Source: the human T2T-CHM13v2.0 reference genome, Homo sapiens. Taken from it: DNA of 64,000 nt. The stretch is taken from NCBI RefSeq assembly GCF_009914755.1, contig NC_060933.1. One strand, given 5' to 3'. Both the position numbers and the translations under genes were made by a program. Below, one piece after another: positions 50,658 through 53,600 of this stretch. The notes below the pieces were generated by a model. The model saw nothing but the letters and a program-made list of their open reading frames with translations. It had not been told where the DNA came from and did not search any database. How positions within the stretch are numbered: position 1 is the stretch's first letter; each line of letters starts with the position of its first letter.

Positions 50658-53600
50658 CTGGGGGATGAGGGCGGGGGCCGGTGAGGGGGGCCAGGCCAGG
50701 CGTGGGGACCCTCCCCAAGGTTCCATCACCAGAGGAAGCAGCAGTACAACCTCCTCCGCGGGGTGGGGGCAGGCAGGCTGCTCCTCAGGACCCCACCCCA
50801 GCGTCCTGCAACCACCTAGCCTGACTCTTGTTAAATGTTAAGGCTTTGATACATCTTCTGAAACCCACCCAGAGAGGGGATCTGTGCAGTCCTCTACCCT
50901 AGATCAGCGGGGCTCCACCTCTATGGGGGGGTCACAGACCCCACTGAAAATCTAACCAACTGCAGGCCCTCTTCCCTGCCCCCAATAAGGCACAAAAGGA
51001 AATTCCTGGAGCGGTTCAGAGGCACCGGCGAGGGCACCAGGGAGGGAGCTCGTCATCTGGACGGCCATCAAGCCACCCTGGTGGCCACCAAGCTCCTTCC
51101 TGGGGTCTCCTCTGTGCGGTGGACACGTCACAGGTCTGGGTGAGGCTGCTGTGTGGGAGTGGGAAGGGGCTTCCCAGGCCTTGATGCCCTCTGGGGCCCA
51201 GTCTCTGTGGGGCCATGCTGCCACGGACTGGGGAGCGCCTGGGCCAACATGCCCCGGTGCCCAGGCCCGCTGTGTGCCCTCACCCAGGAGGGAGAGACGC
51301 CTGAGCCTGACATGCCAAGGGGGCAGCAGGAGTTGGGGGCGGGGGTGGGGGTTCTGGCGGCAGGGAGGTGGGGGTGTCTGCACCTGTGCCCTGAGCACCC
51401 AGGGGAAACCAACAGCAGCTGCAGGGCCAGGAGCTGCAGGGCCAGGATGAGGGCTGGGGGTGGCTCCCCTTGGATATAGTCCTGAGACTTCTTCCTCTGA
51501 GCCTTGAGGTCCTTGGCCTTGGTGAACACACCAAGAGGCCCCGCCCCGCAGGGAGCTGCCGCCACGCGTGTTCTGGCTCAATCTGCACCACCTGCGTCAC
51601 CACATTCCCATCCCCACCCCCGCCTGGTGACAGCTGGGGACAGAAGGTGAGGTCCAGGTGACGGTGACACAGCAGTGGCAGCAGCAGCGTTCCCCACGCC
51701 AGGCTGTGTGCCCCGCCATGACTGCCGCCCAGGAGGGTAGGGCTGGGTCTGAGGGGCGAGCCGCCGTGTCCTGACAGCTGGACCTGCACTTGGAAGGGCT
51801 CCATAAACGGGGGCTGAAGGAAGGCAGGAGCACTAACGAGGTGCCCGCATCATGCGGGTGGGGCCCACATGCGGGCCCAGCGACCCTCGAGACCCTGTGG
51901 GTCAGGCCCTTGTGTCCCTGCGCCCCGTGGGTTTGGCCCTCACTTCTCTGTGGATTCAGCCCTCACGTCTCCCCTGGCATCCCAGCCTCGCGCTCACCCT
52001 GTTGTTCTGCATATCTTTGTTAGCCCCGTTCTTCAGGAGCACAACTGCGGCATCCACATTGTTCACGGCGGCGGCCCAGTGCAGGGCGGACTTGCCTGCG
52101 TGAAAGAAGCAGATGGGGTAGGTTGGAGACCAGCTGGAGGCAACCCAGTCCCACCCGTCCCTGTGGCGGTCCCGCCCCACGACAGAGCAGCCGTGCCCCC
52201 GTGGGCTCACCCAGGTCATCTACGGCGTTGACGTCGGCGTGTGAGTTGATGAGGTCCTCCAGCATGCCCTCCACGGCCAGGCGGGCAGCCAGGATCAGTG
52301 GCGTCGTGCCATCATGCATGCGGGCATCCAGGTCTGTGGCTCGGTTCCGGATCAGGATCTGGGCAACAGGGAGAGGCTCAGGCGGGTGCTGGGCAGACGT
52401 ACACCGATGCCTCCTGCCCAGAACGAACGCCTGGACGGGAAGCCCCACTGTCTTCCGGACACAGACGAGACCCTCCTGAGATCGGCACGGCCGGGCAAGA
52501 CGAAACGCCATGGGGCTGCCCCTGAGGAGGGGCCCGGATGGGGGCAGGGGCTGTGCTGCCCACAGACAGGCCCCTTGGTGACAGTGGGATCCATCGTGAC
52601 CACGTGTGGCCTCATTTAATCCTCACTGTGGTCCTAGCTGCCATGACCACCTACAAAACAGAGAGGTCAAGTCCCTGCCCCCAACGGCGGTTACAGCTGG
52701 CACTCAGGAAGCCGGGCTCACGGCCCTACAGCCGTCTCAGAACCGCCGAGCTAGTGTCCGGCTCTGCCCAGAGAGGGGGTGGGCAGCCCTTGTAATGCAG
52801 CCGGGTCTTGGCATCTGGCAGGAGGAATGGCCCCTGCTCACTGGCGGGTGCAAAAGGCAACTTGGCCTGATTCCTGCAAAGCACCTGGGAACTTCCACAT
52901 CTGTGCAAAGAAGGCAGCTGAGAGAGGCACACACCAAACCCGCACGGGGCTCCCTTCCACGCTCTTTCTGCTCACCTACATTTATTTCTGCGAGATGACA
53001 ATGTGTCACCTGAGCTAAGAAATCAGGAAATGAGAAGCTCTGTGGTAACTCCCCGGGCTGTGCCCATCTGAACCTGCTTGCTCCAGGGCCGCCTGGAGCC
53101 TGGGGACTCGCAGCAGGGGTGACTGCAAAGGCAGCCCCTGCCAGGGACACTCCCTGGAGACCCAGGCATCCAAATCCCTAAATCCATTCTTGCCACGAGC
53201 TCACCGGCAAGCTGAGCCCTAGGTCTGCAGGCACCGAGCGGCAGCCTCTAAACCCTGCTTCTCACTGCCACAGGCTACGCCGGCAGCCAAGGTTGAGGGA
53301 GGGGCGGGGCTGCGAGGGGCTGCAGCAGTGGAACCTGGACCTTGAGCAAGGCCCACAACCCTGATGGAGCCTGTTTTGCTGGGGGTGGGGAGGTGCTGCC
53401 TCACTCAGCAGATCCCCCAGGCCTCCTGCCAGACCCGCCTCTGCCTGACTTCCCTGGAGAACACAGATGGGCCCGACGCCCTCCCCCTCGCACCTCGCTG
53501 ACTGCGAAGGTCCCAGGTGGAGGCACCAGTTGTCCCGGACTCAGCTGTGCTCGGGGTCAGGCTCCCAGGGCCACGTAAGCCTGGCCACTGCCCCAGACCA

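What the first reader, a model, noticed from the sequence alone, without database searches (positions are those of the whole stretch)
51479..51519. NOTCH1 intron 33 carries a near-exact copy of the exon-34 [14 protein letters not shown] segment
Seen: 51479-51519 matches exon 34 positions 50283-50323 at 38/41 nt in the same orientation. It reads [13 protein letters not shown] against [13 protein letters not shown]. Two of the three differences are synonymous third positions (GCA/GCT, TCC/TCT) and the third is CGG>CAG, a CpG-type change. Established: this basic stretch after the ankyrin repeats is a candidate nuclear localisation signal region. Inference: this is the best-preserved core of a local duplication of the last exon, kept similar by past coding selection or by gene conversion. 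It could also cause mis-priming or read mis-mapping in NOTCH1 exon 34 assays. I do not know of a description of it.
Basis: partly seen in the sequence, partly recalled or inferred. Interest (0 to 1): 0.75.

Follow-up and report, generated by a model that had tools for sequence, protein, structure and literature searches.

The report
Short exon-34 copy inside NOTCH1 intron 33
A 41-base piece of the last NOTCH1 exon really does sit a second time in the intron just upstream, but it looks like a small, sharp-edged repair scar in non-coding DNA, not a preserved duplicate of the exon.

Summary
Window 51479-51519 (intron 33) matches 50283-50323 (exon 34) at 38 of 41 bases, same orientation, 1196 bases apart (blastn E 2e-12 for intron against exon, 2e-9 for window against window). 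The whole T2T genome holds only these two places. It is the only dispersed, non-repeat two-copy match in 104 kb covering SEC16A and all of NOTCH1.

The flanks (40-300 nt each side) are no more alike than shuffles (P 0.10-0.93), so this is not the core of a larger duplication. Two synonymous differences out of three is not significant (P 0.12-0.40). With no flanking homology there is no substrate for gene conversion.

Junctions: a CAAGG word lies just outside both ends in the donor and in the recipient. A 5-base AT filler follows the copy, and a CCAAGG repeat brackets the insert.

Best reading (about 0.6): a one-off templated insertion copied from nearby exon 34 during replication or break repair in an ancestral germline, since drifting as intron. 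Its age and the empty-site sequence need orthologous introns, which these tools do not hold. Interest is low.

The parts
51479..51519 (-). Intronic copy (recipient): 41 nt, 38/41 identical to exon 34. Reads [13 protein letters not shown] in the exon's frame.
50283..50323 (-). Donor stretch in NOTCH1 exon 34. Codes [13 protein letters not shown], the second basic cluster of the NLS region after the ankyrin repeats.
51517..51522 (-). CCAAGG word straddling the 5' junction: 3 nt outside the ungapped match and 3 nt inside. It corresponds to the donor's CAAGG at 50324-50328, shifted by 3 nt (the GAG/Glu codon of the exon is absent from the intron). It is either microhomology used for the switch or a 3-nt deletion at the edge of the copy.
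   Evidence: (CAAGG positions)
51474..51478 (-). TATAT filler directly 3' of the copy. It has no counterpart in exon 34 and is AT-only in an intron of 65% G+C. No second template for it was found in the window.
51468..51473 (-). CCAAGG word after the filler, a direct repeat of the word at the 5' junction. The donor has CAAGG at the matching place (50276-50280), 4 nt nearer its core.
   Evidence: a bracketing 6-mer repeat occurs at 5.6-5.9% of 20,000 random placements
51413..51447 (.). Neighbouring 15-nt tandem repeat (2.3 copies, 95% matches), which ends 32 nt downstream of the copy in the gene's sense. Another small local duplication in the same stretch; it may be unrelated.

Best explanation
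A single short templated insertion. In an ancestral germline, a stalled replication end or a broken end in intron 33 primed on a few bases of microhomology (the CAAGG words) in exon 34, 1.2 kb downstream on the same DNA. It copied about 38-41 bases, came off, and was rejoined in the intron with a 5-base filler. The donor exon stayed intact. The patch has no function of its own and has since drifted as ordinary intron DNA.

Shown: the copy, its uniqueness in the genome, its sharp edges and the anatomy of its junctions. Inferred: the direction (exon to intron), the mechanism, the neutrality and the age.
For: (1) The match is real, direct and unique. There are 2 of 2 places in the whole genome for either copy and for the whole intron.
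(2) The edges are sharp. In 8 of 8 flank tests similarity was no better than shuffles, and the next best intron x exon blastn hit has E 0.042.
(3) The donor is very near (1196 nt, same strand), as expected for a proximity-driven switch. A patch drawn from the genome at large would rarely land this close.
(4) Junction anatomy fits. The four CAAGG words of the donor (50328, 50319, 50310, 50280) recur in the same order in the recipient (51521, 51515, 51506, 51472). The outer two lie just outside the ungapped match, shifted by 3 and 4 nt. Intron 33 has 6 CAAGG against 1.3 expected from base composition, and 4 of the 6 are at the patch. A 5-nt AT filler follows the copy, and no other template for it lies in the window.
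(5) Direction. The ARRKKSQ stretch is quoted in PMC5190019 at a serine numbered 2173. I compute 2183 for the human residue, and the offset of 10 fits mouse numbering as I recall it. So the coding copy is old and constrained.
(6) The one replacement difference (CGG to CAG) removes the only CpG of the stretch, as expected for decay in unconstrained, methylated DNA.
(7) Such events are rare but not odd. This is the only dispersed isolated short match in 104 kb. Germline templated insertions are a described class (passages of PMC8421209; PMC5110952).
Against: No orthologous or alternative-haplotype sequence was available, so no empty site was seen. The pre-insertion sequence, the age and the polarity of two of the three differences are unknown.

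The junction repeat alone is weak evidence: a bracketing 6-mer occurs at 5.6-5.9% of random placements.

A clean two-switch model on CAAGG would give uninterrupted identity from the first to the fourth CAAGG. What is seen needs an extra 3-nt loss at one end and a filler at the other.

The event falls outside the operational definitions of the best-studied classes. Pol theta insertions are given as 3-30 bp copied from flanking DNA. MMBSearch calls inverted copies whose template lies within 100 bp.

The patch lies inside a RefSeq 'enhancer' interval (51239-52438, hub annotation), which I could not evaluate.
Confidence: 0.6

Rival explanations
1. RNA- or cDNA-templated patch. A break in intron 33 was repaired with a fragment of NOTCH1's own transcript, either as a bridging template or after reverse transcription, in the manner of class 2 templated sequence insertions.
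For: The donor lies wholly within an exon of a transcribed gene, and the patch has the orientation of the transcript. Class 2 insertions show microhomology and non-templated bases and lack poly(A), and templated insertions are enriched for transcribed sequence (PMC5110952). A filler and microhomology-like words are present here. A nascent transcript is physically near its own gene.
Against: Nothing tells RNA from DNA as the template, because no splice junction is included in the copy. The experimental insertions described were 73-414 bp and came from distant loci; this one is 41 nt from 1.2 kb away. A DNA template switch in cis needs fewer assumptions.
Confidence: 0.12
2. One reading: the 41 nt are the best-preserved core of an older, larger duplication of exon 34, kept similar by coding selection or by gene conversion.
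For: The copy is in frame, and that frame is open for 149 codons in the intron (51577..51128). Two of the three differences are synonymous. With small gaps the outer CAAGG words can be added to the alignment.
Against: The flanks show no residual similarity (P 0.10-0.93 in 8 of 8 tests). The synonymous bias is not significant (P 0.12-0.40) and is partly expected from constraint on the exon copy alone. Long open frames are common at 65% G+C. Read from the phase-0 exon 33 end, the retained intron meets a TGA at its 14th codon (read). Gene conversion has no homologous flank to act on.
Confidence: 0.05
3. The patch has been taken up for a function. One option is the start of an unannotated in-frame cassette exon (51517 down to 51284, 234 nt, open) that would add a second basic stretch between the ankyrin domain and exon 34. 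Another is part of the enhancer annotated over 51239-52438.
For: An AG lies directly before the GCC codon. Intron 33 is phase 0 (exon 34 coding part is 1488 nt = 496 codons), so an exon starting at 51517 would be read as [14 protein letters not shown] donor-like TGG|GTGAGG at 51283 gives 234 nt, a multiple of 3 and open, and resembles real NOTCH1 donors.
Against: The acceptor is AAG, while 18 of 18 real NOTCH1 acceptors in the window are CAG or TAG, and its pyrimidine count is 12/18 against 9-16 (mostly 13-16) for the real ones. The RefSeq table lists no alternative NOTCH1 exon here. The frame is open simply because the stretch is G+C-rich. The enhancer interval is 1.2 kb wide and says nothing about these 41 nt.
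Confidence: 0.03
4. Chance resemblance or convergence of two independent sequences.
For: None beyond the purine-rich, lysine-codon-rich composition.
Against: E 2e-12, 2e-9 and 1e-7 genome-wide. There is a 19-nt exact run.
Confidence: 0.005

Closest known systems
Templated insertions from microhomology-mediated template switching (FoSTeS/MMBIR; 'MMB-TI' germline variants, PMC8421209)
   Same: A short copy of a nearby, intact template is inserted at a new place. Short repeated words sit at the junctions. Such events are found as harmless germline variants.
   Different: The published detector calls inverted copies whose template lies within 100 bp. Here the copy is direct and the template is 1196 nt away. 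No empty site has been seen.
Class 2 templated sequence insertion polymorphisms (Onozawa and Aplan, PMC5110952)
   Same: A patch copied from elsewhere fills a presumed break. There is no poly(A), the junctions show microhomology and non-templated bases, and the donor is a transcribed sequence.
   Different: Those donors are distant or on other chromosomes, and the inserts found experimentally were 73-414 bp. This one is 41 nt from the same gene. Whether it is polymorphic is unknown.
Polymerase theta locally templated insertions (TINS, PMC7165422)
   Same: Copy-and-abort synthesis primed on microhomology, giving direct or inverted repeats of nearby DNA, often with AT-rich inserted sequence.
   Different: TINS are given as 3-30 bp identical to flanking DNA, with single synthesis tracts rarely above 10 bp. 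Here a single 41-nt tract was copied from 1.2 kb away.
Exon or segmental duplication followed by decay
   Same: Two copies of coding sequence lie in one gene.
   Different: There is no homology outside 41 nt, so it is not a duplicated exon or segment.

Membership tests
Templated insertion by template switching / break repair (general kind) | The inserted stretch has an intact donor elsewhere, and identity ends abruptly at both edges | tested here: met
   38/41 ungapped. In 8 of 8 flank tests similarity was no better than shuffles. The donor is the intact coding exon 34.
Templated insertion by template switching / break repair (general kind) | Microhomology between donor and recipient at the junctions | tested here: inconclusive
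   CAAGG lies just outside both ends in both the donor and the recipient. However, the words are offset by 3 and 4 nt, and a bracketing 6-mer occurs by chance at about 6% of placements.
Templated insertion by template switching / break repair (general kind) | An empty (pre-insertion) site in an outgroup or another haplotype | not testable with these tools
   No vertebrate genome other than this one is held. The genome search states that G000 has no relatives.
MMB-TI as called by MMBSearch | Inverted copy of a template within 100 bp of the insertion, at least 10 bp long | tested here: not met
   The copy is in direct orientation and the template is 1196 nt away.
Pol theta TINS | 3-30 bp copied from DNA flanking the break | tested here: not met
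   41 nt copied from 1196 nt away.
Class 1 TSIP (LINE-1 ORF2 mediated) | Target-site duplication of 5 bp or more, a poly(A) tract with an upstream AATAAA, and insertion at TTTT/A | tested here: not met
   A 6-nt CCAAGG bracket could pass as a duplication. There is no A-run, no AATAAA and no TTTT/A at the site (sequence).
Class 2 TSIP | No poly(A), end-joining features (microhomology, non-templated bases), and polymorphic among people | tested here: inconclusive
   The first two features fit. Polymorphism could not be tested, and the donor is local and not distant.
Duplicated exon under coding selection | Homology over the exon or a large part of it, excess of synonymous change, and usable splice sites | tested here: not met
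   Homology is limited to 41 nt. The synonymous excess has P 0.12-0.40. The acceptor is AAG, a type seen in 0 of 18 real acceptors.

The most novel reading that the evidence does not exclude
The patch is a germline scar of transcript-templated repair in cis. A break in NOTCH1 intron 33 was mended using NOTCH1's own RNA (exon 34 sequence, sense orientation) as the template. That would make it a natural human example of a gene's transcript rewriting its own intron.
Probability: 0.1. Interest if true: 0.45.

Novelty: new member of a known kind. Interest (0 to 1): 0.15.

Why it matters
It matters little for NOTCH1 biology. The coding exon is untouched, and the copy sits in an intron with no sign of use.

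It is a tidy example of a short templated insertion whose donor is a well-known coding motif 1.2 kb away. With primate and pangenome alignments it could be dated and its empty site read, giving one clean data point on germline template switching.

In practice, primers, probes, guide RNAs or antisense oligos placed on exon-34 bases 50283-50323 have a second near-perfect site in genomic DNA and pre-mRNA. The two sites share a 19-nt exact run and differ at 3 bases over 41. A sense primer placed there could also prime 1196 bp upstream.

Tried and rejected
(1) Extended homology. Ungapped extension, a gapped global alignment of +/-40 nt, and local alignments of flanks of 40-300 nt against 500 shuffles each gave nothing above chance. 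In the tblastx of intron 33 against the rest of NOTCH1, I printed only the first 25 rows. All were proline-rich low-complexity matches to the upstream part, and I did not inspect the remaining rows.

(2) Other genomic copies or a repeat family. None was found; each of three searches returned only the two places.

(3) A second local template for the TATAT filler. Five of six junction words occur only at the site itself. One 9-mer also occurs at 32311, which I take as chance.

(4) Inverted repeats or snap-back partners around the patch. Only short G+C-rich pairs turned up, and none involved the patch.

(5) Known RNA families in 50000-52200. There were two miRNA-like matches, both far below the gathering scores (24.1 against 71, and 21.1 against 81 bits). 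Neither overlaps the patch.

(6) Literature. For 'NOTCH1' plus 'intron 33', 2 of 2 hits gave no sign of the copy. The one passage I read concerns SEC16A intron 33; the other paper I saw only as a listing.

(7) Earlier findings of this scan.

(8) Cross-species comparison, population variation and RNA-seq support could not be done with the tools at hand.

Full report
**What is there**

On the NOTCH1 strand (minus), intron 33 positions 51519..51479 and exon 34 positions 50323..50283 agree at 38 of 41 bases without a gap, 1196 bases apart. In the exon's reading frame the intron reads [13 protein letters not shown] and the exon [13 protein letters not shown].

- GCT/GCA at 51500/50304.
- CAG/CGG at 51498/50302, which is the only CpG of the stretch.
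- TCT/TCC at 51485/50289.

The title is slightly off. The exon has E before AKDL (..SKEAKDL..). The K directly before A is what the intron reads.

**Is it more than chance?**

Yes.
- blastn gives E 2.05e-12 for intron against exon, and the next best hit there is E 0.042.
- It gives E 2e-9 for the window against itself. Of 1370 non-self matches, this pair is the only one touching 47532-51997.
- Against the whole 3.1-Gb genome, a 121-nt query round either copy, and the whole 1340-nt intron, each find only these two places. So it is not a repeat family or a paralogue fragment.
- I filtered the self-comparison to matches whose two arms match nothing else. That leaves 2 in the 64-kb window: this one and a 72-nt tandem duplication in SEC16A.
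- The same 2 remain when the comparison is widened to 104 kb, covering all of NOTCH1 (2145 non-self matches). This is therefore the only dispersed one.

**Is it the core of a larger duplication?**

No sign of that. Ungapped identity drops to background on both sides. Local alignments of the 40, 80, 150 and 300 nt upstream and downstream of the two copies score no better than 500 shuffles each. The P values are 0.69, 0.36, 0.93, 0.19, 0.65, 0.77, 0.47 and 0.10. The first 25 rows of a tblastx of the intron against the rest of the gene were all proline-rich low-complexity noise, and I did not read the other rows.

**Is there coding selection?**

The test has no power and gives no support.
- For this stretch, 21-27% of single-base changes are synonymous.
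- Two or more synonymous out of three has P 0.12-0.18 if both copies are free.
- It has P 0.29-0.40 once the exon copy is allowed only synonymous change, which it must be.
- The copy's frame is open for 149 codons (51577..51128), but the intron is 65% G+C, where long open frames are common.
- Read from exon 33 (a phase-0 boundary, since the coding part of exon 34 is 1488 nt), the intron meets TGA at its 14th codon (sequence).
- Gene conversion would need homologous flanks, and there are none. The length requirement is recalled knowledge.

**Junction anatomy**

In sense orientation the recipient reads..TTCA-CCAAGG-CCAAGG-ACC..(copy)..CAGGAC-TATAT-CCAAGG-GGAG...

The donor has CAAGG at 50328, 50319, 50310 and 50280. 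The recipient has it at 51521, 51515, 51506 and 51472. The order is the same and the inner two are in register. The outer two lie just outside the ungapped match, shifted by 3 nt (the exon's GAG codon is missing) and by 4 nt.

Intron 33 holds 6 CAAGG against 1.3 expected from its base composition, and 4 of the 6 are here.

The five bases TATAT after the copy have no counterpart in the exon. Of six words spanning them, five occur nowhere else in the window, and one 9-mer also occurs at 32311, which I take as chance.

A 6-mer bracketing an insert of this size occurs at 5.6-5.9% of 20,000 random placements. The bracket alone is therefore only suggestive.

**How it most likely arose**

The picture is a short, sharp-edged, direct copy of an intact donor 1.2 kb away on the same strand, with short shared words at the edges and a filler. 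This fits a templated insertion made when a replicating or broken 3' end primed on microhomology in exon 34, copied about 40 bases and returned.

Direction exon to intron is inferred. The ARRKKSQ stretch is quoted in a Notch1 study at a serine numbered 2173 (PMC5190019, passages). I compute 2183 for the human residue from the exon lengths and a recalled protein length of 2555. The offset of 10 fits mouse numbering as I recall it, so the coding copy is old. That study places this region in the second NLS. The human sequence with this stretch is printed in PMC7963424.

The one replacement difference destroys the only CpG, as expected for an unconstrained intronic copy.

**Comparison with known kinds**

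- Germline templated insertions are described. [quoted passage not shown] Templated sequence insertion polymorphisms are of class 1 (LINE-1 type: target-site duplication, poly(A), TTTT/A) or class 2 (end-joining type: microhomology, non-templated bases) (PMC5110952, parts 1-2 of the text). Pol theta TINS are 3-30 bp copied from flanking DNA (PMC7165422, passages).
- The present case works like these but meets none of the operational definitions fully.
- It is direct and 1196 nt from its template, whereas MMBSearch calls inverted copies within 100 bp.
- It is longer and more distant than TINS.
- It lacks poly(A) and a TTTT/A site, which class 1 requires.
- It is local and shorter than the described class 2 patches, and its polymorphism is untested.
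- An RNA template cannot be excluded or shown, because the donor lies inside one exon.

**Could it be used?**

An AG directly precedes the GCC codon, and the intron is phase 0. A hypothetical exon 51517..51284 (234 nt, open, donor-like TGG|GTGAGG) would stay in frame.

Against this, the acceptor is AAG, while 18 of 18 real NOTCH1 acceptors in the window are CAG or TAG. Its pyrimidine count is 12/18 against 9-16 for the real ones. The RefSeq table lists no such exon. No known RNA family matches the patch, and no inverted repeat involves it.

The 1.2-kb RefSeq enhancer interval that covers it could not be evaluated.

**Practical point**

The longest exact shared run is 19 nt, and the runs are 19, 1, 12 and 6. 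Only oligos placed within the 41 nt are at risk. Reads longer than the patch carry unique flanks.

**What stays open**

Age, the empty-site sequence, the polarity of two differences, population frequency and any transcript use all remain open. None could be addressed, because no other vertebrate genome, variant set or RNA-seq data is within reach of these tools (one search states the genome has no relatives here).

For print, the search for 'NOTCH1' with 'intron 33' returned 2 papers, and neither gave any sign of describing the copy. For one I read the passage, which concerns SEC16A; the other I saw only in the listing. A search for the peptide words found 1 paper, which merely prints the protein sequence.

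**Verdict**

The selection and conversion reading is not supported. It is an ordinary, probably neutral, templated-insertion scar and a new instance of a known kind. Interest is low.

Noticed in passing
window 25217-25360: A 72-nt tandem duplication (two copies, 89% identical) lies in a SEC16A intron. It ends 19 nt upstream of the acceptor of exon 25062-25198 on the minus strand, so the branch-point region of that exon may be duplicated. It is the only other isolated two-copy match in 104 kb.
   Followed up: partly
window 51413-51447: A 15-nt tandem repeat (2.3 copies, 95% matches) ends 32 nt downstream of the patch in the gene's sense. Further 10-12-nt two-copy tandems lie at 51021-51046 and 51624-51643. 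Intron 33 therefore carries several small local duplications.
   Followed up: no
window 51284-51517 (minus strand): There is a hypothetical in-frame, open 234-nt 'exon'. It begins at the patch, after an AAG, and ends at a donor-like TGG|GTGAGG at 51283. The acceptor is weak and there is no annotation support.
   Followed up: partly
window 50859-50935 and 51583-51688 (minus strand): Two miRNA-precursor-like Rfam matches, mir-9229 (24.1 bits against a gathering score of 71) and mir-1260b (21.1 against 81). Both are far below threshold and probably chance.
   Followed up: no
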